A stretch of 64,000 nt of DNA from Acidobacteriota bacterium (GTDB taxonomy: Bacteria > Acidobacteriota > Vicinamibacteria > Fen-336), in contig WYBL01000116.1 in NCBI GenBank assembly GCA_011526565.1, positions 3,019-67,018 on the forward strand, written 5' to 3'. The notes beneath the pieces are model-generated. The model had not been told where the DNA came from. It saw nothing but the letters and a program-made list of their open reading frames with translations, and did not search any database. Below, one piece after another: positions 33,326-62,995 of the stretch (positions within the stretch are counted from its first letter, which is position 1; every line of letters starts with the position of its first letter). A program made the position numbers and the translations under genes.

Positions 33326-33363
33326 AGCGGGGCCTCTCGCGAGGCGAATCGAAGGGGACTGCC

Positions 33364-34158: not shown

Positions 34159-34203
34159 CGTTCGTCAGGAAGCTGGGGCCTCGACCGGCGCCCGGCGGCG
34201 TGG

Positions 34204-47756: not shown

Positions 47757-48809
47757 ATGCCGACCGTCAGTTGGCTCACGAAGATCACGGACTTCGTCAA
47801 CCTCGGGAAGATCCTGGTCGACGCGGGTCCCGGCTTCATTCTGGCCCTGGCGCTCTACGTCGGCCTTGGGACGGCCCTCAACCTCCCCCTCATTCCTGTG
47901 CACGGCCATGACGCGGTCGAGAGCCGCCTTGCCGGCGAGCTCGAGAAGCGGAGGCAGGAGGAGGAGGGGCTCGAAGGCCAGGCCCTGCACGCCGAGCAGG
48001 GCCGGGAGGCCGCAGCCGCGGCGGTGAGCGGGGCCGAGGCAGCGCTGACTCGCGCGAAAGCGTCGCCCCTGGGGGGAAAGGCCGAGAGGCGGCTCGTGGT
48101 CGAGCTCCAACGGCTGCAGGGAGACCTGAGGGAGAAGCAACGTAGCGCGAAGGCCGCCGAGCGGAAGCTGCGACAGGGCAGCGAAGCCGTCGCTGAAGCC
48201 AAGGCGGCCCTCGCCGACGCGAAGAAGGCACAGGTGACGAGCGTCGCCGATCTGCTCTCGAGGGTGCTCGAGCACCTGGTCGCACTCGGCCTCGTGGGCT
48301 ACGTTCTCGGCACCCTGCTCAGCCCCGTCAATCGTTGGGTCTTTCTCGACACGATGGGGTCCGATCCCGCCAGCAACGGACTCGATGGCCGACCCTCTTC
48401 CTACTTCGTCGGAAAGGGGGTGGTGTCGCAGACCGAACTCGATGGCCTGGTGACTTCCTACTACCGGTTCGCCGAAGCGAGCGCCAACATGATCCTCCCG
48501 ATCCTGGCGCTTGCCCTCGCGGTCGGCATCGAACGCCGGAGTTCGGTGGCTTCGACTCCCTGGACCTCAGGCGCCGCGGCGCTGCTCGTCTTGGCGTTCG
48601 TTGTGTTCCTGGCCGTCACAGGCCGGCGCCGCTACCGCGACTACAAGACCCGCGTCCACTCGTTCATCACGGGGCGGCTCGAGAAGGTCCAGGCGGCGGA
48701 CGACGATCGCCGGCAGGGGCTGGAGAAGGCCAGGACGCTCGAACAGGTCGTCAAGCTCGCCGAGGAGCTGCTCAAGAAGACGGCCAAGCCCGGGAGCCCA
48801 ACCGCGTGA
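47757..48809 (+). CDS. membrane protein with central coiled coil, unknown function
   Basis: ATG 47757 with AAGGAGG (47744-47750) upstream. Four hydrophobic helices flank an Ala/Glu/Lys/Arg-rich coiled coil of about 100 aa (RLAGELEKRRQEEEGLEGQ..AEAKAALADAKKAQ). Confidence 0.7.
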   Translation: MPTVSWLTKITDFVNLGKILVDAGPGFILALALYVGLGTALNLPLIPVHGHDAVESRLAGELEKRRQEEEGLEGQALHAEQGREAAAAAVSGAEAALTRAKASPLGGKAERRLVVELQRLQGDLREKQRSAKAAERKLRQGSEAVAEAKAALADAKKAQVTSVADLLSRVLEHLVALGLVGYVLGTLLSPVNRWVFLDTMGSDPASNGLDGRPSSYFVGKGVVSQTELDGLVTSYYRFAEASANMILPILALALAVGIERRSSVASTPWTSGAAALLVLAFVVFLAVTGRRRYRDYKTRVHSFITGRLEKVQAADDDRRQGLEKARTLEQVVKLAEELLKKTAKPGSPTA

Positions 48810-49837
48810 TTCTCCTGTTCACCCTGGCGCAGCGCCTTCGACAGCGGTACGGCGAGGCCCACTGGGACCGCCTGCGGGCCTCGTTGGTCGACCTCGCCGA
48901 CGCCTACACCCTGACTCACGGGGCCGCAGCGCTGTGCCTGCCCGACGAGTTCTGGCCTCCAGGCTCGGACGCCAACGCCGTCGAGCTGATCCGTTCCGAG
49001 CTGGAGGCGCGGGCCCCGATCGAAGCGCTCGTGATCATCGGCGGCGACTCCGTAGTCCCGTTCGGGAGGGCGCCCAATCCCGTCGCCGATCGCGTCGCCG
49101 ATCCTGATTCCCTGGTCCTCAGCGACGCGGTCTACGGATCACCGTGGAGTCTTGCAGGAGCCCGCGTGCCCGTGGCGAGAATCCCCGACAGCGACCCGCC
49201 AGAACTGGGTGAACTGCTGTCGCTCCTCGAGGCGGCCCGGCCGGATTCCCGTGGCTCGTCTCGACGGGGCGCATTCGCGGTCGCGAATCCGGAGTGGGAA
49301 GCAGCGACCTGGAGGGCGCTCAAGGGTCACCGGCCGACCGTGCGAGTCGCTCCCCACTGGCACGGCGGTGATCCGGAGTGGCCATCCAACGACGCCGCCC
49401 TCCTCTACTTCAACCTCCACGGGTTCGCTCGACGACCCGAGTGGTTCGGATTCCACGACCGCAGCGGATGGACTCCCGTGCTGCGGCCCGGGAACATCCA
49501 ACGCGAGGCGGTCGCGGGCGCGATCGTCTTCGTGGAGAACTGCTACGGCGGCAACACCGTCGGCCGGTCACGACGCTCCAGCATCTCGCTGGCCCTGCTC
49601 GCCTGTGGCGCGCGGGCGATCATCGCCACCGCAGGCCTGGCGTTCGGAAGCCACCTGCCTTCCATGGAGCACAACGCCGACGCGCTGGCCAGCGCGACAC
49701 TCTCCGCCCTTTCCACTGGCGCCTCGGTTGGCGCAGCGCTGGACCGGGCGCGGCAAGCTCTGCCGGGCGACGACGCGTTCGCAGCCAAGACCCGATCCCA
49801 ATTCCTGATCTTCGGCGATCCCCTCGCCACCCTCTGA
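48806..49837 (+). CDS. clan CD cysteine-peptidase-like protein (gingipain C25 / caspase-like His-Cys dyad), no signal peptide
   Basis: GTG 48806 overlaps the upstream TGA (GTGA). Contains EALVIIGGDSVVPF, SDAVYG..VPVARIP, the His motif LLYFNLHGF, and the Cys motif AIVFVENCYGG after a hydrophobic strand. This order is typical of clan CD. The call is by eye only. Confidence 0.6.
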   Translation: MILLFTLAQRLRQRYGEAHWDRLRASLVDLADAYTLTHGAAALCLPDEFWPPGSDANAVELIRSELEARAPIEALVIIGGDSVVPFGRAPNPVADRVADPDSLVLSDAVYGSPWSLAGARVPVARIPDSDPPELGELLSLLEAARPDSRGSSRRGAFAVANPEWEAATWRALKGHRPTVRVAPHWHGGDPEWPSNDAALLYFNLHGFARRPEWFGFHDRSGWTPVLRPGNIQREAVAGAIVFVENCYGGNTVGRSRRSSISLALLACGARAIIATAGLAFGSHLPSMEHNADALASATLSALSTGASVGAALDRARQALPGDDAFAAKTRSQFLIFGDPLATL

Positions 49838-49850
49838 TCGGAGACTCGCG

Positions 49851-51707
49851 ATGAGACTGGAATACGTGCTCGCCCTGACCCTCGGAGTCGCTCCGGGCGC
49901 CGCAGCCGAGTCCAACGACCGAAAGGCAAGCCAGTACGTCGTCTTCGACGCTCGGTCCGGCGGCAAGGGGCTTCACCGGTGTGTCGGCAGCCCGGGTGCG
50001 GACTGCCGCGCGCCGAAGACCGACTTCTTCGACAGCCAGGACATCGTCCTGTTCCAGCTCGTCGGCGCTCCCTGCAACACCCGATGGACGTTTCAGCTCG
50101 GCGACGTGGCCGTCCCGGAACCCGAGCCGGGGATACGCGGCCTGGGCGACATGCCATCGCTGGCCAAGGCTCTTGCCGGACCGCCACCGGCGCACGGTTC
50201 TGATGCTCCAGCAGCGCAAGCGGCCGACTCGTGGTCCATCGAAGACATCCTCGGTCGGCTCGTCTCCCGGGAAGGGATCCAGGGCCTCCGGCTCGACATC
50301 GAGGGAGAGAAAGCCAGGCTCGAATCTGAGATCAGGAACCTGGCTGCCGCCGTCGCCGCGTACGAGTACGACGTCCGCATCTTCCTCGCCGACGCCGCGG
50401 TCGAGAACGCGGTTGCCGCGGTTCGCGCGGTCGAGGATGCGGCCGGCAAGCCTCCTGCGGCGGGATGCTCCGGCGCGTACCAGTTGCGCGAAGCTGCGGA
50501 GATGGCCGAGGCGGAACTCTCCCGTGTGGAGGCAAACATCACAACCTCAGGCTTGGGGAGCAAGGCCAGCACTCTGCGGGAGCGGCTGCGCGTGCTCGGA
50601 GCCGAGATTGGCCTTCACGCAGCCCGGGTGGACAGGGCACGCGCCGCGGTCGAGATCGCCCGCTCGGGCCTTGGCTGGGAATGCGAAGCCGCGCCGCAGA
50701 CCACGTCGGCCACCGAATGCGACGCTCCTGTCGAGGTGGGCCTGGAACGCTTGAAGCGAGCGGTGGCCGCCTACGGTGCGACCGCTACGGGCGAGGCTCT
50801 GCGCCGGATATACGACCACTACGAGACGGAGAGGCCTCGCGTCCGATACGCCCTTATGCAAGACCTCGCCGAGCTCGGGGTCGCGCTTTCGAGCACGGCC
50901 GTCGATGGCCAGTTGGGCGCGCAGCGGGATAGCGTTCGTCGCTCCTCGGCATCGCTCGAGACGTGGGGGGCTGGGGCCGACGACCGCCTCCGCGACATGC
51001 GGAAGGCGCTCCGACGCCACTTCGCCGATTCCACCTACGCCTCGACCGTCGACGTGCGCCCTCGATTCACGGGGAACACCGTCCTGAGTCTCAAGGTGCG
51101 GCGCCAGGTATTCGATCCGCTCGCGCCGCCGGCCACCGAGCCTCCCGCCGCCGTCGAAGTGGCGAGTGCATCCTACGAGGTGCACAAGCGGTACCTCTTC
51201 AACGTCGGCGGCGGATTCATGATCAGCGGCATCGGGAACAGGGAATACGCCGTCCGGCAGTATCGACGCCTGGATGCCGACGGGCAGCCCGTCTCCGACG
51301 ACGACGGACCAATCTTCGACAAGAAGCTCGTCGAGTCGGGCTCGGATGACCGGTCGCAGGATTTCGCCCTGACCTTCACCGCCTACCTTCCGCGCCGTCT
51401 CGACACTTTCCACGCGTCGGCGGCGCGCCGACCCACGACTGGGTTGATGGTGGGCTTCTCACTCGAGAAGCCCACGGACAACCTGTACGCGGGCCTCGTT
51501 CTTCAGCCGACCCTGGGCATCCAACTGACGGCCGGGGTTCACTTCGGAAAGCGCTCGGCCCCACAGGATGGCATCGTCCCCGAGGTCACCGTGCTCCCGG
51601 CCGACACGACAGCGCCGCCGATACGAGACGAGTGGGCGAGGGCGCTCTTCTTCAGTATCGGGTTCGACGCCAGCGTGTTCTCGCGGTTGTTCGGGTCGTC
51701 CGAGTAG
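49851..51707 (+). CDS. secreted protein of unknown function (618 aa)
   Basis: Signal-like MRLEYVLALTLGVAPGAAAE, a long helical middle, and a C-terminal third with alternating beta-like segments (GLMVGFSLEK, AGLVLQPTLGIQLTAGVHFG, ALFFSIGFDASVF). Confidence 0.65.
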   Translation: MRLEYVLALTLGVAPGAAAESNDRKASQYVVFDARSGGKGLHRCVGSPGADCRAPKTDFFDSQDIVLFQLVGAPCNTRWTFQLGDVAVPEPEPGIRGLGDMPSLAKALAGPPPAHGSDAPAAQAADSWSIEDILGRLVSREGIQGLRLDIEGEKARLESEIRNLAAAVAAYEYDVRIFLADAAVENAVAAVRAVEDAAGKPPAAGCSGAYQLREAAEMAEAELSRVEANITTSGLGSKASTLRERLRVLGAEIGLHAARVDRARAAVEIARSGLGWECEAAPQTTSATECDAPVEVGLERLKRAVAAYGATATGEALRRIYDHYETERPRVRYALMQDLAELGVALSSTAVDGQLGAQRDSVRRSSASLETWGAGADDRLRDMRKALRRHFADSTYASTVDVRPRFTGNTVLSLKVRRQVFDPLAPPATEPPAAVEVASASYEVHKRYLFNVGGGFMISGIGNREYAVRQYRRLDADGQPVSDDDGPIFDKKLVESGSDDRSQDFALTFTAYLPRRLDTFHASAARRPTTGLMVGFSLEKPTDNLYAGLVLQPTLGIQLTAGVHFGKRSAPQDGIVPEVTVLPADTTAPPIRDEWARALFFSIGFDASVFSRLFGSSE

Positions 51708-51808: not shown

Positions 51809-52585
51809 TCAGCGAGCGGGTGCGGGAGGCTCTGCGAAGATCGCGGCGACGAGGTCGAGGCGGCCCGCTTTCCACTTGGCAAAGAGCCAGTTGACCTCCG
51901 GGGCGAGGCTGGCCGCGGCGATGCGTTCCTGGAGGGGCCCCAGCGCTGCGCGAAGGCCGAGCGTGGCTTCGCCGGCCAGGATCTGGAGCTGGGGCCTTCC
52001 TCGCTCCTGCTTGACCGCGGCCACCAGGAAGCCGTCGCCGAGTTCTTTCGGGACTTGCACCTTGGCCGCGCGCAGCAAGGGACCCTGCGGTGGTGCGCCT
52101 GGGTCGCCCGGGCACAGGGTCAGCTTCAGGTCGTGGTCGGCGGGGAGTTCGAGTTCCTTGGGGCTGAGGCCGCGCAGGCTCGACTCGGCGCTTGCGACCA
52201 CCGCCACCGCGCCGCTGCCGCTCGGCCGGTACACCACCCGCCAGTGCGGTGCTGTCCCGCTCCCGTCCTCGTGGGTGGAGACCGCGGTGGAGGCTGACTG
52301 ACCCGCGATCCAACCCGGGTTGTATCCGCAGTCGAGCGAGCCCGACCAGGTGCCGACGCCCGGCTCGCGCCAGCAGACGAAGTGGCCCTGGAACTCGCCG
52401 CACGAGCCACTCGTGCACCACAGGTTCCCGTCGCACCAGGCCTCGACCTGGGCGCAGGGCCACGGCGGCAACCAGCGCTGGCACTCGACCACGCAGTGAT
52501 CGGCGGCCGCGGGCGCGGTCGCCGAGACCAACGTCAGCGTGAGGAAGAGGTCCGTGATTCGAAGCCTTCTTCTCATGCTTCTCAT
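51809..52585 (-). CDS. secreted Cys-rich protein of unknown function
   Basis: ATG 52585 overlaps the upstream stop (ATGA). Signal peptide MRSMRRRLRITDLFLTLTLVSATAPAAA. The N-terminal domain has 10 Cys (DHCVVECQRWLPPWPCAQVEAWCDGNLWCTSGSCGEFQGHFVCW..LDCG). Confidence 0.65.
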   Translation of the reverse strand: MRSMRRRLRITDLFLTLTLVSATAPAAADHCVVECQRWLPPWPCAQVEAWCDGNLWCTSGSCGEFQGHFVCWREPGVGTWSGSLDCGYNPGWIAGQSASTAVSTHEDGSGTAPHWRVVYRPSGSGAVAVVASAESSLRGLSPKELELPADHDLKLTLCPGDPGAPPQGPLLRAAKVQVPKELGDGFLVAAVKQERGRPQLQILAGEATLGLRAALGPLQERIAAASLAPEVNWLFAKWKAGRLDLVAAIFAEPPAPAR

Positions 52586-52977
52586 CCCTGCCGCCCGCGC
52601 GTGACCACCTCGACCGTGCCGCCGGGCCGCAGGATCAGCTCGATCCGCGCCGCATCCGAGACTTGAAGCACCTGAGTCCACCGCTCCGCCCTCCCGTCGT
52701 TCGACCAACTCACCGTCGCCTGCACGACGCCGGCGTGCGCCCGCACCCGGAGCCTCGGCCCCGTGCCCGTCTCGTGCCCGAGCAACTCGGCCCGCACGCA
52801 CGCCGCATCCACCCTCAGCGTGACGCCAGACGCAGCCCCCGGCCCGCCATTCACGACCTCGACGAGCACTCTGTCGCCGAGGAGGCGGGCGCCGAGCCGC
52901 GGCGCGGCGGCGAGCCCCGCCCCGACCACTGCGAGCGAAGCGACGGCCGCCCAGCGCAACGCCAGGTGGCCACTCAT
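52582..52977 (-). CDS. small signal-anchored protein of unknown function
   Basis: ATG 52977 overlaps the upstream TGA (ATGA). Sequence MSGHLALRWAAVASLAVVGAGLAAAP, then a beta-rich region of about 100 aa. The 89 upstream codons of the track ORF are Arg/Pro junk. Confidence 0.6.
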   Translation of the reverse strand: MSGHLALRWAAVASLAVVGAGLAAAPRLGARLLGDRVLVEVVNGGPGAASGVTLRVDAACVRAELLGHETGTGPRLRVRAHAGVVQATVSWSNDGRAERWTQVLQVSDAARIELILRPGGTVEVVTRGRQG

Positions 52978-54338
52978 GGCTTCTGGTAGCCGTAGAGCTC
53001 GCGTCGAGCGCCGGCAACCGGGGACATCCAGTCGTCGATCGGGAGACCGGGGAGCGGGCGGCCCCAGAGGTCGCCCCACCTCGCGCCTCGGAGGAAGCTG
53101 ATCGTCCAGCGCTGGACGAGATTCATCAGCGGGAGCGCGGCGTGCAGGGTCATGCCCTTGCGGAACGGGAGGTTCTCGCCGACTCCGAGGAACCCGCCGA
53201 AGTCGCGCTCCGCGACGCCGACCACGGAATCCCGGTCCGCCCACTCAGGAACCGCCCCGTGCAACGGCACGGTACCGTCGCCGAGGTTGTCGCGCCAGGC
53301 GTCGACGTCGGCCGGGGCCCCGTCTTCGCCGCGGTACTCCTGCGACTCCACGTCGAACGCGAAGCGGCCGTCGGCCGCCAGCTTCACACGATGCGCCGTG
53401 CGCTCGTCCAGGCCCACGATCAGCAGCCACTGGCCCGGCTCGGCGAGGGCCGCGCTCGGGTCCTCCTCGTTGACGCTCGCGAGGAAGCTGCGCCCGTCTT
53501 CGAGGCGCTCGCGGAGGTACTTCCACGCGGACTTCATGCGCTGCTCGGCGTTGGAGTTCCTGGGGTCGGTGCTGTGCGTCCGGATGAAGTCGGCGACCGA
53601 CTCGACGATGCTCTCCTGCCAGTTCTTCGCGTTGAAGATCGCCTTCCCCGAGTGCCCCGCCAGCGCTCCTTCGAAGTACGGCAACAGGTGGTAGATCGCG
53701 GGCGTCATGCGGGCCGCCAGGCGCTCGCTGTGCTGCGGCGAGCCGACCATCGAGCCTTCGCCCGTGGCCAGCTTGATCACCGCGTCGACCGCTCCCTGGA
53801 AGGGCGTTCCGATCGTCACCACGCGTCGAACCAGCGGCTTGCCGTTCGGGCCCTTGCAACCCTTGGCGAGAGCCGATGCGATCACCAGACCGCCCATCGA
53901 GTGGCCCACGAGGTCGACCGTCGTCGCCTTCTCTTTCGCGTAGCTCTTCAGGAGGTTGGTGCGGTCGATCACCTCGCGCACGAACTCGCAGAGCTGGTCC
54001 GCCACGACGCGGTTGTCGGCGCGCCAGTCGTAGGCGAACGGGAAGACGGGCACGACTGCCGTCGGCCCGCGATCTTCGCGCAGCGCCGATCGCAGCTCGC
54101 GGATGAACTCCGCGTAGCCCATCTCCGCCGCGTGCGAGGGGACGATCTTCGCCGGCTCCACCGCCTCGAAGCGCAGGTCGTCCGGGTGCATCGCGATGCG
54201 GTGGAACTCCTTGATCGGCCGCCAGCGCAGCGCCTCGATCCCGGGGTCCCAGACGACCTCGGGCGTGGTGGGATAGACGTCGCGGAGCACGGACCCCGTG
54301 ATCCCGTGGACGACGATCACCGGTGGCTGCACCTTCAT
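52974..54338 (-). CDS. alpha/beta hydrolase, LCAT/PGAP1-like lipase/esterase, no signal peptide
   Basis: ATG 54338 with GGAGGG 8 nt upstream. Oxyanion-loop start VIVVHGITGS, nucleophile elbow LVGHSMGG, and Asp region LGDGTVPLHG. Confidence 0.75.
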   Translation of the reverse strand: MKVQPPVIVVHGITGSVLRDVYPTTPEVVWDPGIEALRWRPIKEFHRIAMHPDDLRFEAVEPAKIVPSHAAEMGYAEFIRELRSALREDRGPTAVVPVFPFAYDWRADNRVVADQLCEFVREVIDRTNLLKSYAKEKATTVDLVGHSMGGLVIASALAKGCKGPNGKPLVRRVVTIGTPFQGAVDAVIKLATGEGSMVGSPQHSERLAARMTPAIYHLLPYFEGALAGHSGKAIFNAKNWQESIVESVADFIRTHSTDPRNSNAEQRMKSAWKYLRERLEDGRSFLASVNEEDPSAALAEPGQWLLIVGLDERTAHRVKLAADGRFAFDVESQEYRGEDGAPADVDAWRDNLGDGTVPLHGAVPEWADRDSVVGVAERDFGGFLGVGENLPFRKGMTLHAALPLMNLVQRWTISFLRGARWGDLWGRPLPGLPIDDWMSPVAGARRELYGYQKP

Positions 54339-54444
54339 TGCCAGGCCCTCCAGACTCGCTCGTTCATAAAGTATACATAAAGCACACACGGAACGCTCGA
54401 TGGATCGGCTTTGAGCCCCGCGCGAAGGCTCGAGCCTCGGCCCT

Positions 54445-56760
54445 TCAGGGGCGGCGCAGGGTCTCCAACGGGGCTTGCCGTGACGCGGCGACTGCCGGTG
54501 CCAGCGAGGCGGCGGCGGCGCACAGAAGGGTGAACGCCGCCGATGCGGTCAGCGTCGTGAGTTCGAACGACGCCCACTGGAAATGAGCCGACTCGGCCCA
54601 CTGGCCCAGCCACACCGAGACGAGGGTTCCGATCCCGATGCCTGCCATGGCCAGCGTCGCCCCCTCGGCCGCCATCAGGATCGTCAACTCGCGGGGCCCT
54701 GCTCCGACGACGGCCCGGACCGCCATCTCGAAGCGGCGCATCGCGGCGAGGGAGTACACGACGGCAGAGACGCCGACGAGCGCCGCCCCAAGGCCGACGA
54801 GGGCGTACGTGCCGAGCAGTCGCACCTGCGCCAGGAGCGGCGCCTGTGCTCGGGCGACGAGATCCCCGGCGAACACCAGGCCATGGACCGAGGGGCTCTT
54901 CGCCGTCCCGCTGACGGCGTGGATCTGCCGAGCGGCCTCGCCGCAATCGTGGCAGCGCACCAGCAACCACTCCTCGTCGGGGTGGCGACCGCGGGCCGGC
55001 CGACTGCGCGGCAGGTAGCACTGGGGCAGGGGTTCCTGGGCAGCATCGATGCCTCGTACCGGTGCGACGACGCCGATGACCTCGCGCAGGGCCAGTTCGC
55101 CCTCGATGCGGATCTGACGACCCACGGCCGCGACAGCCTGCCCTGGCCGCCGCCCCTCGTCGGCGAACGCCAGGATCAGTACGTCCGCGTCTCCCGGCGC
55201 GAAAGCCCGCCCGGCGAGCAGCCGGATCCCGGTCGCGGCCAGGAAGTCGCCCTCCACGTGCCAGACCTGACAGAGGACCCTCCCGGCCTCCCCGTCGATC
55301 CACACGCCCCCTGCTGACGCGACACCTGGAGGCGCAGACGCGGTCGCCGCGGCCGACACTCCGGGAAGTTGCGCGACCTCGGCCATCAGGGCCTGAGGCG
55401 AGGCGCCCAGGCGCCCGAGCAGCAGGTTCTTCGATTCGTAGCCCAGAGGAATCTCGAGTGCTGCTCTCAGGGTCCATGCGGAGACCAGCGCGCCGTTGAG
55501 CAAGACGACCGCGATGACCGTCTGACTGATCACCAGGAGGCGGCGCGTCCACCGCACCTGCCCTGTGGACGCTCCCCCGCCGTCCCGCAGGCCTTCCGAC
55601 GGAGCCGCGCGCAATGCAACGGCCATCGCGCCGGCGGATGCGAGGAGGACGCTCGGGAACGCCAGACCGAGAGCCGCCCCGCTCGCGACGGCGACGAGAC
55701 GCTCGAGCGGCGGCTGGTGGACCCACCAGGCCGCGAATATCTCGCGTCCGCCGACGATCGAGAGGGAGGCGACCAGCGCCCCCACGACGCCCACTCCGAG
55801 GGCGAGGGAGAACGTCTCGCTGCCGAGCTGCAGCAGGAGGTTTCGCCGCGTCGCGCCGAGAGCCTGCCGCACGGCGAACTCGACGCGGCGCACCGACATC
55901 CGACCCAGCAAGAGAGTGCCCAGGCTCGCGACGGCGGTACCCAGGAGCAAGCCCGAGAGCGCCAGGAGCAGCAGCGCGGGCGCTATCACTCTCTCGCGCG
56001 CCACGTCCACCATCGGCCGGACGAACACGCGCTCGCCGAAGCGCACCCCGGTGCTGCGCGTGTAGAGGGCGTGCAGGCCGTGCAGCAAGCCCCCCAGTTG
56101 CGAACGCGCCGACTCGATGCTGGTCTCGGGCCGCAGGCGCCCGACCCAGCCGTCGCGTCGCACCAGGCCGAACGGATCGTCGTTGCCTCGGGCCCGCCCT
56201 CCTGCACGCGTGCGTGGCGTCCAGATCTCGGTGCCTCCCGGGAAGTCGAAGCCCGCCGGGGCGACACCGACGACGCGGTGAAGGGTGCCTTCCAGCAGGA
56301 TCTGCGCCCCGAGCACGGCCGCCCCGGGACCGAAGTGCCGGTCGCGGAAGGCGGCGCCCACAACGGCCACAGGTTCGTTCGATCGATCCTCCTCGACGCT
56401 GAATGCGCGCCCCGGCAAAGGAACGACCCCGAACACGCTGAAGAAGGCGGCGGAGACAGCGGTGGTCCTGACCTCTCTACGGTGGCCGTCCAGTCGGACC
56501 TCGACGAGTCCGGTCTCGTAGGTCGCCAACGCCGCGAGGCTTCGCGCCTGCCCCCAGTACTCGACGGGGTCCCCGACGAGAGGGTGCGCCATGTTCCCGA
56601 GATGCACGATGCGGTCCGCCGCGGGCACCCCGAGCGGGCGCAGGACCAAGGCATCGACGGCGGCCACCATCGCGCTCGCCACGCCGAGGACGACCCCGAG
56701 GGCGATGGCGACGACGGCCGTACCGCGATGGCGAAGGGCGAGCCGGGCATCGAGGCGCAC
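54445..56760 (-). CDS. duplicated FtsX/MacB-type ABC permease (ADOP family-like), no cognate ATPase nearby
   Basis: GTG start. It has two FtsX 4-TM modules, each preceded by a large periplasmic MacB_PCD-like domain. The N-terminus RLALRHRGTAVVAIALGVVLGVASAMVAAVDALVLRPLG fits the acidobacterial duplicated orphan permease pattern. Confidence 0.8.
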   Translation of the reverse strand: MRLDARLALRHRGTAVVAIALGVVLGVASAMVAAVDALVLRPLGVPAADRIVHLGNMAHPLVGDPVEYWGQARSLAALATYETGLVEVRLDGHRREVRTTAVSAAFFSVFGVVPLPGRAFSVEEDRSNEPVAVVGAAFRDRHFGPGAAVLGAQILLEGTLHRVVGVAPAGFDFPGGTEIWTPRTRAGGRARGNDDPFGLVRRDGWVGRLRPETSIESARSQLGGLLHGLHALYTRSTGVRFGERVFVRPMVDVARERVIAPALLLLALSGLLLGTAVASLGTLLLGRMSVRRVEFAVRQALGATRRNLLLQLGSETFSLALGVGVVGALVASLSIVGGREIFAAWWVHQPPLERLVAVASGAALGLAFPSVLLASAGAMAVALRAAPSEGLRDGGGASTGQVRWTRRLLVISQTVIAVVLLNGALVSAWTLRAALEIPLGYESKNLLLGRLGASPQALMAEVAQLPGVSAAATASAPPGVASAGGVWIDGEAGRVLCQVWHVEGDFLAATGIRLLAGRAFAPGDADVLILAFADEGRRPGQAVAAVGRQIRIEGELALREVIGVVAPVRGIDAAQEPLPQCYLPRSRPARGRHPDEEWLLVRCHDCGEAARQIHAVSGTAKSPSVHGLVFAGDLVARAQAPLLAQVRLLGTYALVGLGAALVGVSAVVYSLAAMRRFEMAVRAVVGAGPRELTILMAAEGATLAMAGIGIGTLVSVWLGQWAESAHFQWASFELTTLTASAAFTLLCAAAASLAPAVAASRQAPLETLRRP

Positions 56761-56787: not shown

Positions 56788-57015
56788 CTATGAACGAGGC
56801 GCCGGCTCCCAACGCCCGGCACGGCAGACGAGGATGCTGCTCTGGCCCCTGATCAGAGCACCCTCGGAATACGTGGCCCCCTCGAACGTGCATCCGGCGG
56901 GCTTGGCGGCAGGCAGCCCTGGCGACTGGTCGGAAGCCCTCCAGAGGGCGAGGGCAGCCAACAGACTGACGATGCCCAGGACCCCGATCGCCAGACGGAC
57001 GTGCGGCTGCTTCAC
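56788..57015 (-). CDS. small anchored protein with 2-Cys ecto-motif
   Basis: GTG 57015 lies 3 nt after the upstream stop, with GGAGG 8 nt upstream. Sequence KQPHVRLAIGVLGIVSLLAALALW, then CTFEGATYSEGALIRGQSSILVCRAGRWEP. Confidence 0.6.
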   Translation of the reverse strand: MKQPHVRLAIGVLGIVSLLAALALWRASDQSPGLPAAKPAGCTFEGATYSEGALIRGQSSILVCRAGRWEPAPRS

Positions 57016-57018
57016 AGT

Positions 57019-57618
57019 TCACCCCTCCTGTTCGACGCCATCCTCACGTTGCAGCCCCGGCAGACGAACTCCGAAATAGGCCTCCACTTCGCCCTGCAGC
57101 GCACCCGAGAGAGCACCGCCCCATATCTTCTCGACTCGTCCATCGGCGCTGACCACGATGAGGGTCGGCGTGGCCGCGAGCCCGAACTCCTGCGCGGTCG
57201 GACGTTCGAGACCGACAACTTCGAACCCCAGCAGTGTTTCCTCTGCTGTCACCTTCTCGCGGGACGCGCTCAAGGAAAGCCCTTTGAACTGATATCGCCC
57301 CGTGCTAGCGGCGGCCAGGACGCGGATGTTCGCGAGATTGCGACGGCACCAGACGCACTCCTCGGACTGCACGTAGAGAACACTCGGCAGGGCGCCTCCC
57401 AGCGTGAGCGGTTGTCCCCGTCCGTGGCGATCGGTTACCGGGATCTCCGGAACTTGCCTGCCGACACTCAGGGCCTTGGGAGGTCGACCCCGGTCATCAG
57501 GTGGTTGCCTGAGCTTGAGGCCGAGACCCACATTCGCGGCAAGGGAGGCGCCCAAGGCGATGAGCAACAGCGCCACGGCCAGATTGCTGTCGAGAAGCCG
57601 ATCCATGCAGGCTCGCAT
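57019..57618 (-). CDS. membrane-anchored thioredoxin-fold thiol:disulfide oxidoreductase (TlpA/redoxin-like, CVWC)
   Basis: ATG 57618 with AAAGGAGG upstream. TM anchor LAVALLLIALGASLAANVGLGL, then SVLYVQSEECVWCRRN (CxxC), and ATPTLIVVSADGRV (cis-Pro region). Confidence 0.75.
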   Translation of the reverse strand: MRACMDRLLDSNLAVALLLIALGASLAANVGLGLKLRQPPDDRGRPPKALSVGRQVPEIPVTDRHGRGQPLTLGGALPSVLYVQSEECVWCRRNLANIRVLAAASTGRYQFKGLSLSASREKVTAEETLLGFEVVGLERPTAQEFGLAATPTLIVVSADGRVEKIWGGALSGALQGEVEAYFGVRLPGLQREDGVEQEG

Positions 57619-57654
57619 GGTGGCACCTCCTTTCCGGGGGCTGACGGGTGGCGT

Positions 57655-57682
57655 ACTCCGGCCAGCTGGCGCTGGCCGGAGT
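57655..57682 (-). terminator. perfect 12-bp stem / 4-nt loop hairpin between the peptide gene and the thioredoxin-fold gene (attenuator or mRNA-stabiliser candidate)
   Basis: ACTCCGGCCAGC tggc GCTGGCCGGAGT, read directly. It ends 8 nt downstream of the peptide stop codon (57691-57693). No U-tract follows on the minus strand. Confidence 0.55.
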
Positions 57683-57690
57683 ACAGGTTG

Positions 57691-57957
57691 TCAGCAGAGC
57701 TCGCAGGATCCCCAGGTTCCGTCGCTCTTGCACTTCTGGCTCTTGCCGCTCGAGCAGACGCTCTGGACGCAGGAACCGGTGCTGTAGCAGACACCTGCGT
57801 ACTGGCAGTTGCAGCTACCGCCACTGCCCCCGCCATCCCCAGGATCCTGGTAGTACGGCCCATCGGCCAACACCGAAAACGCGCCGCCGGCACCGACGAT
57901 CATCAGCAGCGTCAGCGCCAGGACGAATCCCCTTCGCGCCCGTCGTGTCCTTCCCAT
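57691..57957 (-). CDS. secreted 8-cysteine peptide precursor (88 aa)
   Basis: SD GAGGGAG upstream of ATG 57957. Sec-type N-terminus MGRTRRARRGFVLALTLLMIVGAGGAFSVLA, spacer DGPYYQDPGDGGGSGGS, and core CNCQYAGVCYSTGSCVQSVCSSGKSQKCKSDGTWGSCELC. Confidence 0.65.
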   Translation of the reverse strand: MGRTRRARRGFVLALTLLMIVGAGGAFSVLADGPYYQDPGDGGGSGGSCNCQYAGVCYSTGSCVQSVCSSGKSQKCKSDGTWGSCELC

Positions 57958-58261: not shown

Positions 58262-58645
58262 TCAGGGGGCGGCGGAGGCTGGTTCAGCGCGCTGCCCCCC
58301 GCGCAGGCTGCCGAGCCGAGCGATGAGTACCTTGCATTTCAGGGCAGCGACTTGCCTGCGCCACTCGGGGCCCTGGTCCTGAAGCACGTTGAGGGCTCGC
58401 TCATAGCTCGCCTCGGCCTCTTGGAACGCGCCGCTATCGAAGTGAGTGTCCCCTTCCCGGGAGTACAGGCCGGCTGCACCTGCGAGCCCCGCCGATTCAC
58501 TGGACAAGTCCGTCTGCTGCGTGGGCATCACCCCGACCGGCAAGAGGAACATCAGCGGCAGCGCCACAACCGCAAGAAGGACCACTGCGGCACAACCGAC
58601 GGGAGTGATCCAACTTGTTCCGCGCCCCTCCGCAGACGTGGTCAC
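58262..58645 (-). CDS. single-pass membrane protein with TPR-like C-terminal helices
   Basis: GTG start. TM CAAVVLLAVVALPLMFLLPVGV, then GDTHFDSGAFQEAEASYERALNVLQDQG. Confidence 0.55.
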   Translation of the reverse strand: MTTSAEGRGTSWITPVGCAAVVLLAVVALPLMFLLPVGVMPTQQTDLSSESAGLAGAAGLYSREGDTHFDSGAFQEAEASYERALNVLQDQGPEWRRQVAALKCKVLIARLGSLRGGQRAEPASAAP

Positions 58646-58663
58646 TGGCTCTTGCGCTTTGCG

Positions 58664-59116
58664 TCACGCGCCGCAGGAGGTGGGGCTGGCCTGGAGTCGA
58701 TCGATCATCTCGATCGCCTTGAGCAGTTCTCTTTGGAGGACTTCGAGCGCCTTGGTGTTTTCGTCGTCCAGCTGCTTCTGCACGGTCCGGGCGTGGTCAA
58801 GGATCCTGTCGATTTCTGCAGACGCAGGTGCGTGGGCCTTCGCGAGTTCTTCGGCGGCGATCTGCTGGAACTTCGCGTCCGCGGCAAGCTGGCGGGCTAC
58901 TCCCTGCGCGATCGTCTCGCGGAGGCTGGAGAGTTGATACAGGATGCCCGCACCCCCACACAGCAGGCCCACGACCAGCCATGTCTTGAAGAACCGCACG
59001 ACACGCTCGCGGAGGTCCCACTCGACCTTCCGGATGGCGCGAAGCAGCAGTGCCGCTTCCTCCTCCGTCAGAGTGTCCGGCAAGGCCGGAGCCTTCGCTT
59101 TCTGGTCATCGCTCAT
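58664..59116 (-). CDS. single-pass membrane coiled-coil protein, unknown function
   Basis: MSDDQKAKAPALPDTLTEEEAALLLRAIRKVEWDL, TM WLVVGLLCGGAGILYQL, then a helical region (AEIDRILDHARTVQKQLDDENTKALEVLQRELLKAIEMIDRL). Confidence 0.6.
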   Translation of the reverse strand: MSDDQKAKAPALPDTLTEEEAALLLRAIRKVEWDLRERVVRFFKTWLVVGLLCGGAGILYQLSSLRETIAQGVARQLAADAKFQQIAAEELAKAHAPASAEIDRILDHARTVQKQLDDENTKALEVLQRELLKAIEMIDRLQASPTSCGA

Positions 59117-59134
59117 GTAACACCCCGTTTCCGA

Positions 59135-60253
59135 TCAAGCAGGCAGGCAACAGACGAATCCGCTGACCAGCCACAGGCCCAGCAAGCCGAGGGCTGTCAG
59201 AAGGAGGCCCAGTGCTCCGTAGCGCAGGAGGCCCGCGCGAAGCAGGCGCGGCGGTGGACGCCAAGGGGGCTCGGGCAGGGCTCGCGCGGGGACTGCGGCT
59301 GAGACGTGATCGCCTGGGACGCTGAGGAACGGTCCCCACGTGTGCTCGAAGACGTCCGGCATTCGAGCCTCGTCGAAGAAGTCGCTGTGGCTGAAGTCCG
59401 CGTCGAAGGCGTGGTGGATGCGAGCCCTGTCATCGAAACCGCGGCAGCCGGACGGGCCCGATTCGGGGATGAAGTAGACGGCGACGCTCGCCCACACGTC
59501 CCGGCCCGCCGCGTGACACAACACCGCTTCCACGCGGCCGGCTTCGATCAGCGGTGCCCAGCCGAAGTCCGGGCGGACGATGCTCCCCGCCAGGATCACC
59601 CGGCCCACTTCGATCGACGAGTCGGCCAGCAGAGCCTGGGCGAGCAGCCATGTGCCGAAGCTGTGGGCGATCACGTCCGGACGGCCACCAAACCCCGCCC
59701 CCAGGGCGCGCGCCTGGATCACGCGAAACCGCTGAACCAGATGTCGCACGAGCTGTCGCTGGCGGAATCTCACCAGCACCCCTGGCCTCACGACGCCGTA
59801 CTTGTAGACGAAGACCGGGACGGAGTGGCCGTAGGTCGTGGCGAGGTGCCAGGCGAGAGACTCCTGCCACGATCCGGTCGTGTTCATGCCATGGAGCGTG
59901 AGGACCCAGGGGACGTCGCGGGTCGGGGGCTCGTGGCGCTCGAAAAAGGTCTCGGGCCGGGGCTCGTCCCCCGGCGCGAAGACCCGCTCACATTCGGAGC
60001 ATGCGGGCGTCGAAGGCTCGTCCAGCTCGAGGCGCCGTTCGCACGGGCAGACGAATCCCGCGCGCGCCTGGAGAAGACCCGCGGCCGCAAGATCCGCGAG
60101 CAGCGCCGCGGCCTCAGTGAGCGGCGCGTTCGTCCGAGTTGCGAGGCTCTCCGCTGTGAGCGACAGCGGACCACCCGCCAGGAACGCCCCGCGGCACGAC
60201 TCGACCAGTCGCCCGGAATACCGCCCCGCAATGACAGGCCAGGGGTCCGTCAC
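59135..60253 (-). CDS. wHTH-like + Cys4 zinc-ribbon + alpha/beta hydrolase (HSFG nucleophile elbow) + C-terminal TM anchor
   Basis: GTG 60253 overlaps the upstream TGA (GTGA). Contains LSLTAESLATRTNAPLTEAAALLADLAAAGLL, then FVCPCERRLELDEPSTPACSEC, then the hydrolase core WVLTLHGMNTTGSWQ, DVIAHSFGTWL, HAAGRDVW and DFSHSDFF. The tail is LLRYGALGLLLTALGLLGLWLVSGFVCC. Confidence 0.7.
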   Translation of the reverse strand: MTDPWPVIAGRYSGRLVESCRGAFLAGGPLSLTAESLATRTNAPLTEAAALLADLAAAGLLQARAGFVCPCERRLELDEPSTPACSECERVFAPGDEPRPETFFERHEPPTRDVPWVLTLHGMNTTGSWQESLAWHLATTYGHSVPVFVYKYGVVRPGVLVRFRQRQLVRHLVQRFRVIQARALGAGFGGRPDVIAHSFGTWLLAQALLADSSIEVGRVILAGSIVRPDFGWAPLIEAGRVEAVLCHAAGRDVWASVAVYFIPESGPSGCRGFDDRARIHHAFDADFSHSDFFDEARMPDVFEHTWGPFLSVPGDHVSAAVPARALPEPPWRPPPRLLRAGLLRYGALGLLLTALGLLGLWLVSGFVCCLPA

Positions 60254-61302
60254 GCCGCTTCGACGACGCGGCTCAGCAAGTCCCACACCTCGCTGGAACG
60301 GAGCTGGGTGCGAATGTGGATGCGCCGCTCCAGGCTGAACAAGCCGAAGCGCACGGGCGTCAGGGGCGCCGCCCGCGGCCAGGTGAAGAGTCCCATTGTC
60401 GCGGTGAGCTTGTCTCGCCTCAGCGCTTTCCACGCCTGGCGGATGACTGTGGAGTCTGTGTAGGCGTGGTCCTTCTTGAGGCTCTCGAACGCGACAGACG
60501 CCAACCCGTCGTCCAGGCGCGCCTGTATCGGCTTGACGCTGACACCTCCCGCTCCCTCTGAGCCAGTCGCCTCGCTGGCCTGCGCCAGGCGCTTGACCGC
60601 ATCGGACAGCCCGATCGGCTCCAGCTTCCCGAGGTCGATCGCGGCCTTGACCGTCTCGGCGATGCGGGCCCGCGCCTCTTCGTGAGCGGCGCGGTTCCAG
60701 GGCACCTGCAGGAAGGCCGCGGCCAAACGTGGCTCTCGGTGCAACTCGAGCCTCATGAGCGTCCGGTCGCGGCGCTGGCGATACGCTTCGTAGCGGTAGA
60801 CCTCGCCGTCGTCCTCGGCTGCCGGAGCCTTGTCGCGCTCCTTCGTCCGCTCCCAGATCTCCAGACCCTTGTGCCAGACGAAGCGGATGGAATCCTCGGC
60901 CTGACGGATGCCGGTCAACTCCTGCTCGTCCGGGAAGGCGAGCGTGGAGGGGGCCCCGAGCAGGGATTCGAGCCCGGCGCGCGCAAGCCGCCGGCGCAAC
61001 TGGGGTTCCGAGGTGAATAGCGCGTCCGGCACCACGCTCGCCGGCAGCCACCAGAGGTAGATGTGCTGTTCGCCCCAGCCCTCGACGTGCGCCAGCCAGG
61101 ACTCGACATCCTCCAGCCGCAACTCGCCGTCGTCGACTGCTGCGGCGAGGTTGTGCGCGAAGTCCTCCTTCGTCCGTCCGATCGTCAGGCCCTTGTCGCG
61201 GAGCAGTTCCTTGATGAAGACGTTGCCTTGCGCCAGGACGATCCCCGAGACGAGTTCACGGAGCTGGGACTTCTCGCGCGGAGTCGGGCCCTTGCCCCCC
61301 AT
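60250..61302 (-). CDS. hypothetical soluble protein (350 aa)
   Basis: ATG 61302 with GGAGG 7 nt upstream. N-terminus LRELVSGIVLAQGNVFIKELLRDKGLTIGRTKEDFAHNLAAAVDDGELRLEDVESWLAHVEGWGEQHIYLW. I recognise no family. Confidence 0.65.
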   Translation of the reverse strand: MGGKGPTPREKSQLRELVSGIVLAQGNVFIKELLRDKGLTIGRTKEDFAHNLAAAVDDGELRLEDVESWLAHVEGWGEQHIYLWWLPASVVPDALFTSEPQLRRRLARAGLESLLGAPSTLAFPDEQELTGIRQAEDSIRFVWHKGLEIWERTKERDKAPAAEDDGEVYRYEAYRQRRDRTLMRLELHREPRLAAAFLQVPWNRAAHEEARARIAETVKAAIDLGKLEPIGLSDAVKRLAQASEATGSEGAGGVSVKPIQARLDDGLASVAFESLKKDHAYTDSTVIRQAWKALRRDKLTATMGLFTWPRAAPLTPVRFGLFSLERRIHIRTQLRSSEVWDLLSRVVEAA

Positions 61303-61306
61303 GGCG

Positions 61307-62518
61307 TCACCCCTCCGGGTTCACCTCGCGGACCAGGACCTTGGGCTCTCCCAGCAGATCCAGGTCCAACGTGAGCCTCGGCTGGCCGCCCGCGCGCGCG
61401 CTCGGATACACGAGCCCCGGGATGCGTTCGTCGCCGCTGCCCGCCACTTCGACCAGGAAGCCGCCCTGACCGGGATACACGACGAGAGCGCCCGGGTCGG
61501 CGTCGTCGAGGGCGACCACGCGATAGCCGAAGCGACCGGGATCGGCGTAGAGCTGTCGGGTGGTGATCGGATGATCGTAGGGGGTTCTCGGCAGCCCCTT
61601 GCCGCCATCCGCCGCGGCGGCCACGTCCAAGAAGACGTTGGCCGCATCGAAGCTCTTGCCTGCAACCTCGACCAGCGGCTCGACCCGATAGACCCGCAGC
61701 CACTTCTGGCACGCCGGACATTCCTTCTTGTCGGCCTCCTTAAGCGCGACACACGGTTCGGTCGGCGGAGCAGTGCAGACGTAGTAGAAGGCCGGGGCCG
61801 ACTGTGCCTCGGCAGCCGGGCCGGCGACCAGCGCGCCCGCGGTCAGGGCCAAGATCGGAGCCCTCCCGCCGGCGGCTTTGGCGATGGCGTTGATGAAGAC
61901 CTCGAGGACGCTTTTCAGGTTCTGGTAGAAGGTGGTCACGAAGAGGCCCGCGAGGAGCGCGAGCACCTGCCCTGCGGTCGTCGCCGTCGTGCCAGCCAGG
62001 AAGGCGAGCCCAAAGACGAGCCCGTAGCAGATCACTCCCGCCAGGGCCGCCAGGAAAAACGAAGCGAGCAGGCTCGGGAACGCCTGCTTGCCATCGGGCT
62101 GCAGGGCGCTGAGCCAGACCGACGCGCACCAACCGATCAGGCCACTGAGACAGAAGGCCGCGACCCACAAGCGCGGGTGCGGTCGCGACATTAGGAGGGT
62201 CCGAGCTACGGGCCGCTTCAGTTCGGCCGCATAGAGCTCCGGGAAGATGTGCCGTTGAGCAGCGTCCTCCTGGGTCATCTCGACGGCGCCGAGTCGTGTC
62301 GTTTCGTCGGGCCTCGGCGCGTGTTTGTCCCAGACTCGGATCGCCCAGTCGACCTGGGCGTAGAGCCAGACTGCACCCACGAACACGGCCACGGAGGCGA
62401 GCAACGTCCGGACCAAACGGTCTCGCTGAGACTTCTGTCGTCGCAACGCCGCACCTCCCGCGGACAGGGCCGGCCCTGGAACGGTTCGGGTATCATATAT
62501 ACGCTTTGCGTACCGCAT
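61307..62518 (-). CDS. polytopic membrane protein with C-terminal Cys-cluster domain, unknown function
   Basis: Track ORF 61307..62833 trimmed to ATG 62518 (MRYAKRIYDTRT); the upstream codons look non-coding and overlap a better + strand ORF. There are about 5 TM helices, then APAFYYVCTAPPTEPCVALKEADKKECPACQKW and a domain of about 120 aa. The start is uncertain. Confidence 0.6.
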   Translation of the reverse strand: MRYAKRIYDTRTVPGPALSAGGAALRRQKSQRDRLVRTLLASVAVFVGAVWLYAQVDWAIRVWDKHAPRPDETTRLGAVEMTQEDAAQRHIFPELYAAELKRPVARTLLMSRPHPRLWVAAFCLSGLIGWCASVWLSALQPDGKQAFPSLLASFFLAALAGVICYGLVFGLAFLAGTTATTAGQVLALLAGLFVTTFYQNLKSVLEVFINAIAKAAGGRAPILALTAGALVAGPAAEAQSAPAFYYVCTAPPTEPCVALKEADKKECPACQKWLRVYRVEPLVEVAGKSFDAANVFLDVAAAADGGKGLPRTPYDHPITTRQLYADPGRFGYRVVALDDADPGALVVYPGQGGFLVEVAGSGDERIPGLVYPSARAGGQPRLTLDLDLLGEPKVLVREVNPEG

Positions 62519-62527
62519 CGGCAACCG

Positions 62528-62923
62528 GTGGGTCCCGTGCCTGTACCGCTTCACGGACCGGAGCAGGCAGCCTCGGCGGCGGCCGGCAATGCGCTGGTGC
62601 TGGAAGCGTCCACGAAGTCTGCCGAGAAACTGGGGCGACACCTCAGCGCTTTTCACTTGAAGGTGAAGGCTCCTGACCGTGAGTTGCCCTTGGAGTCTGC
62701 CTTCCAGGGCAGCAAGGTGTTCGAACGCGGCGGCCCCTTCACGGATCTCTACGCCGCTGGGGCCGTGGATGCCAAGCGGGATCCTCGGCTGCGAGATTCG
62801 GGACGGGTCATTGCGTTCGATTTTGCGGGCCATCGCTTCCCGGTCGAGCCGCGCACCGCCTTCTACGACTGGCTCTACATCGACACGCGACGTCCACCTC
62901 CGCCCTGGTTCGGGGCCCTGTAG
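62528..62923 (+). CDS. small conserved-looking protein, family not identified (possibly truncated)
   Basis: This is the 3' two-thirds of ORF 62249..62923; GTG 62528 or 62537 are candidate starts. It is strongly protein-like (LPLESAFQGSKVFERGGPFTDLYAAGAVDAKRDPRLRDSGRVIAFDFAGHRFPVEPRTAFYDWLYI). It ends in a Pro-rich tail (DTRRPPPPWFGAL). Confidence 0.5.
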   Translation: MGPVPVPLHGPEQAASAAAGNALVLEASTKSAEKLGRHLSAFHLKVKAPDRELPLESAFQGSKVFERGGPFTDLYAAGAVDAKRDPRLRDSGRVIAFDFAGHRFPVEPRTAFYDWLYIDTRRPPPPWFGAL

Positions 62924-62995
62924 GCCTCGGCGCGCGGGGGATCGGGGACGAGGATGTGGCGGTAGCGAGGGGGGCTCCTCGGCCGTTGCCCTGGG

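What the first reader, a model, noticed from the sequence alone, without database searches (positions are those of the whole stretch)
51809..54444. Cytoplasmic LCAT/PGAP1-like lipase translationally coupled to two secreted proteins, one with a 10-Cys N-terminal domain
These three minus-strand genes are chained by two ATGA overlaps (52977/52974 and 52585/52582). The operon has its own AT-rich upstream region (54339-54444), which contains CTTTATG-TATA-CTTTATG (minus strand) with a TATACT -10-like hexamer. The lipase-like protein (VIVVHGITGS, VGHSMGG, GDGTVP) has no signal peptide, while both partners do. The last protein starts with DHCVVECQRWLPPWPCAQVEAWCDGNLWCTSGSCGEFQGHFVCW. A cytoplasmic hydrolase tightly coupled with exported Cys-rich proteins is an odd combination that I cannot map to a known pathway. 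It lies directly downstream of the peptide/permease locus on the same strand.
Basis: partly seen in the sequence, partly recalled or inferred. Interest (0 to 1): 0.5.

Follow-up and report, generated by a model that had tools for sequence, protein, structure and literature searches.

The report
Leaderless lipase fused to exported gene pair
A soil acidobacterium has placed a common, uncharacterised lipase gene with no export signal directly in front of a rare pair of exported-protein genes; the two units occur separately elsewhere, so this is a lineage-specific operon and not evidence of a new pathway.

Summary
The three minus-strand genes are real. Both ATGA overlaps are present and conserved in relatives. 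GC3 is 86-92% and dN/dS is 0.15-0.38.

B (131 aa) and C (258 aa) are exported orphan proteins. C has 8 invariant Cys in its N-terminal domain and 9 in total, not 10. A profile search of 1.8 billion representatives found five matches for C.

B and C travel together without any lipase in two other lineages, so they form an independent module. A-B-C, preceded by an ADOP/MacB-type permease, is found only in one Vicinamibacteria clade, where its flanks vary like a defence island.

A leaderless lipase next to exported partners recalls T6SS Tle/Tli effector-immunity pairs, but the defining context features were tested and not met.

My verdict: a lineage-specific operon joining two independent units, of modest interest.

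The parts
52974..54338 (-). Gene A: 454-aa LCAT/LPLA2/Tle4-type alpha/beta-hydrolase with no leader peptide (GHSMG nucleophile Ser147, Asp354 in GDGTVP, His399)
52582..52977 (-). Gene B: 131-aa exported orphan protein (N-terminal hydrophobic leader or anchor plus a roughly 100-aa domain). Its ATG overlaps the stop codon of A (ATGA).
   Evidence: ATGA overlap confirmed. It has no Pfam, NCBIfam, PADLOC or PDB hit. Only 5 close homologues were found. The 47%-identical homologue in L009/L099 is a lipoprotein (LGAC). A distant B-like protein lies next to the C-like gene in L095 (hhalign E 1.3e-4). dN/dS is 0.22-0.38.
51809..52585 (-). Gene C: 258-aa exported protein with a Sec leader, an 8-Cys N-terminal domain of about 55 aa, and a C-terminal domain of about 170 aa. 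Its ATG overlaps the stop codon of B (ATGA); an alternative ATG lies at 52576.
   Evidence: Sequence and ORF. Eight Cys are invariant across relatives at 28-84% identity. A profile search of 1.84 billion representatives found five matches. It has no Pfam or PDB hit. The AF2 model is unusable at pLDDT 40. dN/dS is 0.27-0.31.
54339..54444 (-). Intergenic region upstream of A. It is relatively AT-rich, carries the unique element CTTTATGTATACTTTATG (54365-54382), and has a GGAGG Shine-Dalgarno at 54351-54347, 8 nt before the ATG.
   Evidence: Composition and motif. The region is conserved in L013 and L014 and partly in L012. There is no sigma-70 consensus hit, no Rfam family, and the RNA fold is not significant at z -1.5.
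54445..56760 (-). ADOP-family duplicated MacB/FtsX-type permease (771 aa). It is the conserved upstream neighbour of A-B-C in this clade.
   Evidence: Pfam MacB_PCD and FtsX, and NCBIfam TIGR03434 ADOP at 4e-96. The ADOP-A-B-C block is kept in L001, L012, L013 and L014 while the flanks differ.

Best explanation
This is a lineage-specific operon in a Vicinamibacteria (Acidobacteriota) genome that joins two units which evolve independently elsewhere.

Unit 1 is gene A. It is a cytoplasmic serine hydrolase of the LCAT/LPLA2 type, and it may associate with the inner face of the membrane. It most likely acts as a phospholipase A or O-acyltransferase on glycerophospholipids through the Ser147-Asp354-His399 triad. 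Its family is widespread and normally encoded as a stand-alone gene.

Unit 2 is the B-C pair. B is a small exported protein, a lipoprotein in one relative. C is an exported protein stabilised by four predicted disulfides in an 8-Cys N-terminal domain. The pair acts in the periplasm or at the cell surface and moves between genomic sites as a two-gene cassette.

In this clade the cassette sits directly behind A, with conserved 4-nt overlaps, and behind an ADOP/MacB-type permease. The three proteins are therefore made together, from a promoter in the 106-nt AT-richer spacer or by read-through from the permease gene.

Shown here: gene structure, fold class, catalytic residues, absence or presence of leaders, co-occurrence patterns and purifying selection. 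Inferred: lipid substrate, cytoplasmic site of action, co-transcription, and that co-expression reflects a shared envelope-related regulon and not a physical A-B-C complex.

For: A stands alone. The 66 distant loci have no recurrent neighbour cluster. The commonest Pfam family among 132 flanking proteins occurs only 4 times. The 47% clade keeps A in a LarA...GalT housekeeping synteny with a variable downstream gene. The 58% relative has no B or C.

B-C is an independent pair. L099, L100 and L009 have B(128 aa)-C(251 aa) overlapping by 14 nt with no lipase, inserted beside a tpiA fragment. L095 has a C-like gene followed by a B-like gene with no lipase.

The overlaps and the ADOP-A-B-C block are conserved in four different flanking contexts. 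B and C are under purifying selection.
Against: Conserved ATGA coupling of A to B, and retention of the four-gene block while everything around it changes, could mean a true functional dependency that this reading treats as co-expression only.

No activity, localisation or transcript data exist. B and C have no recognisable fold (C model pLDDT 40), so their role is unknown. Gene calls in the distant loci came from a home-made caller that mis-trained on the whole 64-kb window; it reproduced the reference calls on L001.
Confidence: 0.55

Rival explanations
1. Effector-immunity module of the Tle/Tli type. A is an antibacterial phospholipase that is harmless in the producer's cytoplasm and is delivered into the periplasm of competitors. 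B and/or C are periplasmic immunity proteins that neutralise incoming A. B-C pairs without A would then be orphan immunity genes.
Against: There are no VgrG, Hcp, PAAR, adaptor or other T6SS genes in the 64-kb window or among the 132 genes flanking 66 A homologues. Most A homologues have no adjacent exported gene. The 47% clade sits in housekeeping synteny. A toxin family would need a linked immunity gene everywhere. Sequence identity to Tle4 is only 15%. No PADLOC hit.
Confidence: 0.12
2. Trans-envelope lipid or export pathway. The ADOP (MacB-type) permease, A, B and C work together. A modifies or cleaves a lipid or lipid-linked substrate at the inner face of the membrane. The permease drives extraction or expulsion on the periplasmic side. 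B (the lipoprotein-like partner) and C serve as periplasmic accessory or substrate proteins. The upstream Cys-rich peptide and thioredoxin-like genes may belong to the same system.
For: The four-gene block ADOP-A-B-C is retained in four different flanking contexts. In two of them (L001, L012) the upstream 88-aa Cys-rich peptide, the thioredoxin-like membrane protein and the DUF1496 gene are also retained. A C-like gene in L097 lies next to PadR-ADOP. ADOP permeases are 'orphans' lacking known partners (NCBIfam TIGR03434).
Against: A 106-nt spacer with its own conserved AT-rich element separates ADOP from A. The intact B-C pairs in L099 and L095 are not next to an ADOP gene in an operon. From my own knowledge, ADOP paralogues are very numerous in Acidobacteria, so adjacency is weak evidence. 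No ABC ATPase or membrane-fusion protein is in the block.
Confidence: 0.18
3. Secreted lipase with a dedicated helper. Here A would be exported by a non-classical route, and B would be a membrane-anchored lipase-specific foldase or chaperone like Lif/LipB.
For: Family I.1/I.2 lipases and a lipase-foldase complex (2es4, 9g8u) appear among the Foldseek hits at E 1e-6 to 1e-4. The helper-like gene is immediately downstream and overlapping.
Confidence: 0.03

Closest known systems
Lysosomal phospholipase A2 (PLA2G15) / LCAT, Pfam PF02450
   Different: The eukaryotic enzymes are secreted or lumenal glycoproteins with leaders and disulfides. A is leaderless and bacterial, at about 14-21% identity, with a different cap (Foldseek TM 0.40-0.47). 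Its activity is untested.
T6SS lipase effector Tle4 (TplE, PA1510) with periplasmic immunity protein Tli4 (PDB 4R1D)
   Different: There is no vgrG, hcp or PAAR context here or in 66 homologous loci. The exported partners are not conserved with the lipase family. Identity is 15%. Two partners are present instead of one. B-C shows no similarity to any solved chain, Tli4 included.
Uncharacterised bacterial 'lipase/acyltransferase domain-containing' / 'esterase/lipase family' proteins of about 435 aa
   Same: A is a full-length member at 35-48% identity over 94-100% of its length, with the same triad and the conserved C-terminal WGRPLPG motif.
   Different: Those genes are stand-alone. Only the Vicinamibacteria clade at 83% identity or more carries B-C downstream and ADOP upstream.
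Lipase / lipase-specific foldase operons (LipA-LipB/Lif)
   Same: A lipase gene is followed by an overlapping gene for a membrane-anchored or exported helper.
   Different: LipA has a Sec leader and is secreted by T2SS, and Lif is a helical steric chaperone. A has no leader, and B shows no similarity to Lif.

Membership tests
LCAT-like alpha/beta-hydrolases (Pfam PF02450; LCAT, LPLA2, PDAT) | Score above the Pfam gathering threshold | tested here: met
   47 bits against a 21-bit cutoff, covering residues 98-281.
LCAT-like alpha/beta-hydrolases (Pfam PF02450; LCAT, LPLA2, PDAT) | GxSxG nucleophile elbow and a Ser-Asp-His triad | tested here: met
   GHS147MG, D354 (GDGTVP) and H399 are invariant in 16 homologues at 38-86% identity.
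LCAT-like alpha/beta-hydrolases (Pfam PF02450; LCAT, LPLA2, PDAT) | Fold closest to LCAT/LPLA2 among solved structures | tested here: met
LCAT-like alpha/beta-hydrolases (Pfam PF02450; LCAT, LPLA2, PDAT) | Phospholipase A or acyltransferase activity on glycerophospholipids | not testable with these tools
   This needs an enzyme assay.
T6SS Tle/Tli lipase effector-immunity pairs (Tle4-like) | Leaderless GxSxG lipase structurally related to a Tle family | tested here: met
T6SS Tle/Tli lipase effector-immunity pairs (Tle4-like) | Encoded next to vgrG, hcp, PAAR or an adaptor gene, or inside a T6SS cluster | tested here: not met
   None were found in the 64-kb window. None appear among the 25 most frequent Pfam families of the 132 genes flanking 66 homologues. 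The rest of the genome could not be searched.
T6SS Tle/Tli lipase effector-immunity pairs (Tle4-like) | A cognate periplasmic immunity gene linked to the effector throughout the family | tested here: not met
   Exported partners are present only in the clade at 83% identity or more. Relatives at 58%, 47% and 33-42% identity lack a conserved adjacent exported gene.
T6SS Tle/Tli lipase effector-immunity pairs (Tle4-like) | The immunity protein binds and inhibits the lipase; the lipase is toxic in the periplasm | not testable with these tools
PGAP1 GPI inositol-deacylase (the name NCBI gives a member of A's 90%-identity cluster) | Full-length match to PF07819 and a GPI-anchor pathway in the organism | tested here: not met
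   Only profile positions 63-133 of 233 are matched (32.7 bits). From my own knowledge, GPI anchoring is eukaryotic. The name comes from domain transfer.
Lipase / lipase-specific foldase (LipA-Lif) | Lipase with a Sec leader secreted through the periplasm, with a downstream foldase homologous to Lif | tested here: not met
   A has no leader. The B profile has no PDB or Pfam match.
ADOP / MacB-type permease (upstream neighbour) | Duplicated MacB_PCD + FtsX architecture, TIGR03434 | tested here: inconclusive
   Pfam MacB_PCD (75 bits) and FtsX, each matched in two stretches. TIGR03434 gives 322.8 bits and E 4e-96, which is below the 622-bit curated cutoff.

The most novel reading that the evidence does not exclude
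A-B-C is a T6SS-independent interbacterial lipase toxin system in Acidobacteria. The leaderless LCAT/Tle4-like lipase would be released or delivered with the help of the adjacent MacB-type ADOP permease. The exported B (lipoprotein-like) and 8-Cys C proteins would act as a two-component periplasmic immunity or activation module. That would explain why B-C cassettes also circulate on their own as orphan immunity genes.
Probability: 0.08. Interest if true: 0.7.

Novelty: new member of a known kind. Interest (0 to 1): 0.27.

Why it matters
The practical value lies in two pointers.

First, there is a large family of leaderless LCAT/LPLA2/Tle4-like hydrolases, with over 1000 members in at least ten phyla, and I found no characterised member. 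NCBI names a close relative 'GPI inositol-deacylase', which is a transferred domain name. A biochemical study of any member would annotate the whole family.

Second, the B-C pair is a very rare, mobile, exported two-gene cassette with a new 8-Cys domain. If it proved to be an immunity or toxin module, it would be a first handle on interbacterial competition in Vicinamibacteria, which are abundant in soil but hard to culture.

As it stands, the 'odd combination' is best read as a local operon fusion, not a new pathway.

Tried and rejected
1. The structure prediction of C from 6 sequences gave pLDDT 40, so I ran no fold search on it.
3. Pfam, NCBIfam, PADLOC and PDB sequence searches for B and C found nothing significant. 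The alpha-lytic protease match at E 0.06 and the DUF1905 match at E 0.04 were dismissed as chance.
4. The metagenome scan for C relatives returned one close relative only.
5. Viral contig scans for A and for C returned none.
7. My first ORF-based gene caller merged B into C. The codon-model caller reproduced the reference calls on L001 but mis-trained on the full window. I therefore used a GC3-based caller for the window and relied on the collection's own gene calls wherever available.
8. The 179-aa lipoprotein overlapping the 47% homologue in L006 looked like a recurring 'lipase plus exported partner' theme. It is absent from L101 and L102, so I rejected the idea.
9. A riboswitch or leader RNA upstream of A was rejected: no Rfam hit and fold z -1.5.
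10. A sigma-70 promoter was not detected by the consensus scan.
11. The literature search for characterised bacterial PF02450 proteins found only a mention in a Pantoea vgrG island.
Full report
**What is there**

The window has 71.6% GC. On the minus strand lie three ORFs:
- A, 52974-54338, 454 aa
- B, 52582-52977, 131 aa
- C, 51809-52585, 258 aa

GC3 is 0.92, 0.89 and 0.86 for A, B and C. The stop codon of A and the start of B share ATGA at 52977-52974. The stop of B and the start of C share ATGA at 52585-52582. C has a second in-frame ATG at 52576 because of a 9-nt tandem duplication (ATGAGAAGC|ATGAGAAGA). Relatives with a single ATG still overlap the stop of B by 4 nt.

Upstream of A is a 106-nt spacer of 59% GC. 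It holds the unique 18-mer CTTTATGTATACTTTATG (0 matches expected by chance) and a GGAGG 8 nt before the ATG. The spacer is conserved in close relatives. In the most divergent one (L012) only GTATACTT is kept. A sigma-70 consensus scan finds no promoter. No Rfam family matches, and the RNA fold is not significant. Directly upstream lies a 771-aa ADOP/MacB-type duplicated permease.

The organism is a Vicinamibacteria (Acidobacteriota) MAG. NCBI calls a member of A's 90%-identity cluster 'GPI inositol-deacylase' and the corresponding B and C relatives 'hypothetical'.

**Gene A**

- **Sequence.** Pfam LCAT (PF02450) scores 47 bits against a 21-bit cutoff, with a weaker PGAP1 match. A 16-sequence alignment shows invariant G-H-S147-M-G, D354 (GDGTVP) and H399. 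Every member begins within four residues of the first beta-strand, so the family has no leader peptide.
- **Distribution.** More than 1000 homologues exist, full-length at 35-48% identity. They come from Planctomycetota, Gemmatimonadota, Verrucomicrobiota, Chloroflexota, Proteobacteria, Desulfobacterota, Bacteroidota, Cyanobacteria and other phyla.

**Gene neighbourhood of the A family**

I called genes in 84 loci. Clustering the genes within four positions of the A homologue in about 75 of them gave no family shared across phyla, only lineage-local synteny. I then scanned 132 immediately flanking proteins from 66 distant loci against Pfam. The commonest family occurs four times, and no VgrG, Hcp or PAAR family is among the top 25.

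In the clade at 47% identity, A sits between LarA/aldose-epimerase/alanine-racemase genes and FHA/GalT genes. The gene immediately downstream differs in each genome. The relative at 58% identity has neither B nor C. A is therefore normally a stand-alone chromosomal gene.

**Genes B and C**

- **Export signals.** C has a textbook Sec leader ending AAA|DH. B has an N-terminal hydrophobic segment. Its 47%-identical homologue carries a lipobox (VLGAC), and a distant B-like protein has a standard leader.
- **Cysteines.** C has eight Cys that are invariant across relatives down to 28% identity, plus C158.
- **Rarity.** Neither protein matches Pfam, NCBIfam, PADLOC or any PDB sequence. The word-indexed searches found 5-6 close relatives each. 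An exhaustive profile search of 1.84 billion cluster representatives found five matches for C.
- **Selection.** Both are under purifying selection, with dN/dS of 0.22-0.38 for B and 0.27-0.31 for C. They evolve faster than A, at 0.15-0.18.
- **Structure.** The AF2 model of C is unusable at pLDDT 40.

**Co-occurrence**

Three arrangements exist.
1. ADOP-A-B-C is found in the window and in L012, L013, L014 and L098. The flanks differ and include KAP NTPase, Hen1/Pnkp, caspase-like peptidases, a radical-SAM cluster, and NADAR-DarT1 with an AAA ATPase. The block sits in a variable, defence-island-like region but is itself stable.
2. B-C alone, overlapping by 14 nt, is inserted between a 193-aa tpiA fragment and the intact tpiA-pgk-gap operon in L099, L100 and L009. 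tblastn finds no trace of A on L009. In L009, C is frameshifted.
3. A C-like gene (28% identity, full length) is followed by a B-like gene (hhalign E 1.3e-4) with no lipase in L095.

**Interpretation**

The best-supported reading (0.55) is a lineage-specific operon that places an exported B-C cassette behind a widespread cytoplasmic LCAT/LPLA2-type phospholipase or acyltransferase. The result is co-expression, possibly within an envelope-related regulon.

The obvious known analogue is the Tle/Tli effector-immunity pair: a leaderless lipase with periplasmic partners. It is supported by the fold match to Tle4, the exported or lipoprotein partners, their faster evolution, and the orphan B-C cassettes. 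However, the defining genomic context (vgrG, hcp, PAAR) and family-wide linkage of an immunity gene were tested and not met. I give it 0.12.

A joint ADOP-A-B-C trans-envelope function is suggested by conservation of the block, but ADOP paralogues are very abundant in this phylum. I give it 0.18.

A lipase-foldase pair is rejected (0.03).

**Limits**

- Only the 64-kb window and contig fragments could be examined, not whole genomes, so a distant T6SS cannot be excluded.
- No multimer prediction was possible.
- Neighbour calls in distant loci come from a simple codon-model caller that was validated on one locus only.
- There are no expression, localisation or activity data.

Noticed in passing
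window 52568-52585 (minus strand): A 9-nt tandem duplication, ATGAGAAGC|ATGAGAAGA, at the start of gene C creates two in-frame ATGs (MRSMRR...). Relatives P0123 and P0124 have a single ATG that still overlaps the stop codon of B.
   Followed up: partly
L099 3336-6623; L009 6588-9910: The lipase-free B-C pair lies between a 193-aa tpiA fragment and the intact tpiA-pgk-gap operon. This looks like a cassette insertion with partial duplication of the target gene. In L009, C is frameshifted just after its leader (…ADQCTLECQR*).
   Followed up: partly
window 56788-57957 (minus strand): Upstream of the permease lie three small genes: an 88-aa secreted 8-Cys peptide (57691-57957), a membrane-anchored thioredoxin-like protein (57019-57618, Thioredoxin_2 E 3e-4) and a 75-aa DUF1496 protein (56788-57015). 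All three are conserved with the block in L001 and L012; only the DUF1496 gene is kept in L014, and none in L013.
   Followed up: partly
window 58262-63982; L013, L014 flanks: The surroundings vary like a defence island. The window has a NADAR-DarT1 antitoxin homologue (62537-62923, E 3e-42) next to an AAA ATPase (62996-63982) and several genes with no Pfam hit. Relatives have KAP NTPase, Hen1/Pnkp RNA repair, pYEATS and caspase C14/C11 genes at the same position.
   Followed up: partly
window 47757-51707 (plus strand): Three convergent genes of 350, 343 and 618 aa have no Pfam or PADLOC hit. The first has a coiled-coil and a TM segment. They recur in L014 beyond the Hen1/Pnkp insertion but not in L012 or L013.
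   Followed up: no
window 26750-28609 and 32210-37451: There is a cNMP-binding patatin/NTE-like phospholipase (Patatin 4e-29, NTE_Ploop) and several cNMP-binding TPR proteins, including one with two cNMP domains. Together they form a cyclic-nucleotide signalling cluster unrelated to the finding.
   Followed up: no
A, B, C compared with L013 and L014: Synonymous divergence rises along the operon, with dS of 0.10 for A, 0.20 for B and 0.30-0.37 for C. This suggests recombination or a different history for the distal genes.
   Followed up: no
L006 9392-9931: In one 47%-identity relative, a 179-aa lipoprotein with a Pro/Thr-rich linker overlaps the lipase stop codon by 4 nt. It is absent from the syntenic loci L101 and L102.
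   Followed up: yes
window 53142-54380 (plus strand): A 412-aa ORF runs antisense to gene A, and similar long antisense ORFs occur throughout the window. These are artefacts of the 72% GC content, and they misled a codon-model gene caller trained on the whole window.
   Followed up: yes
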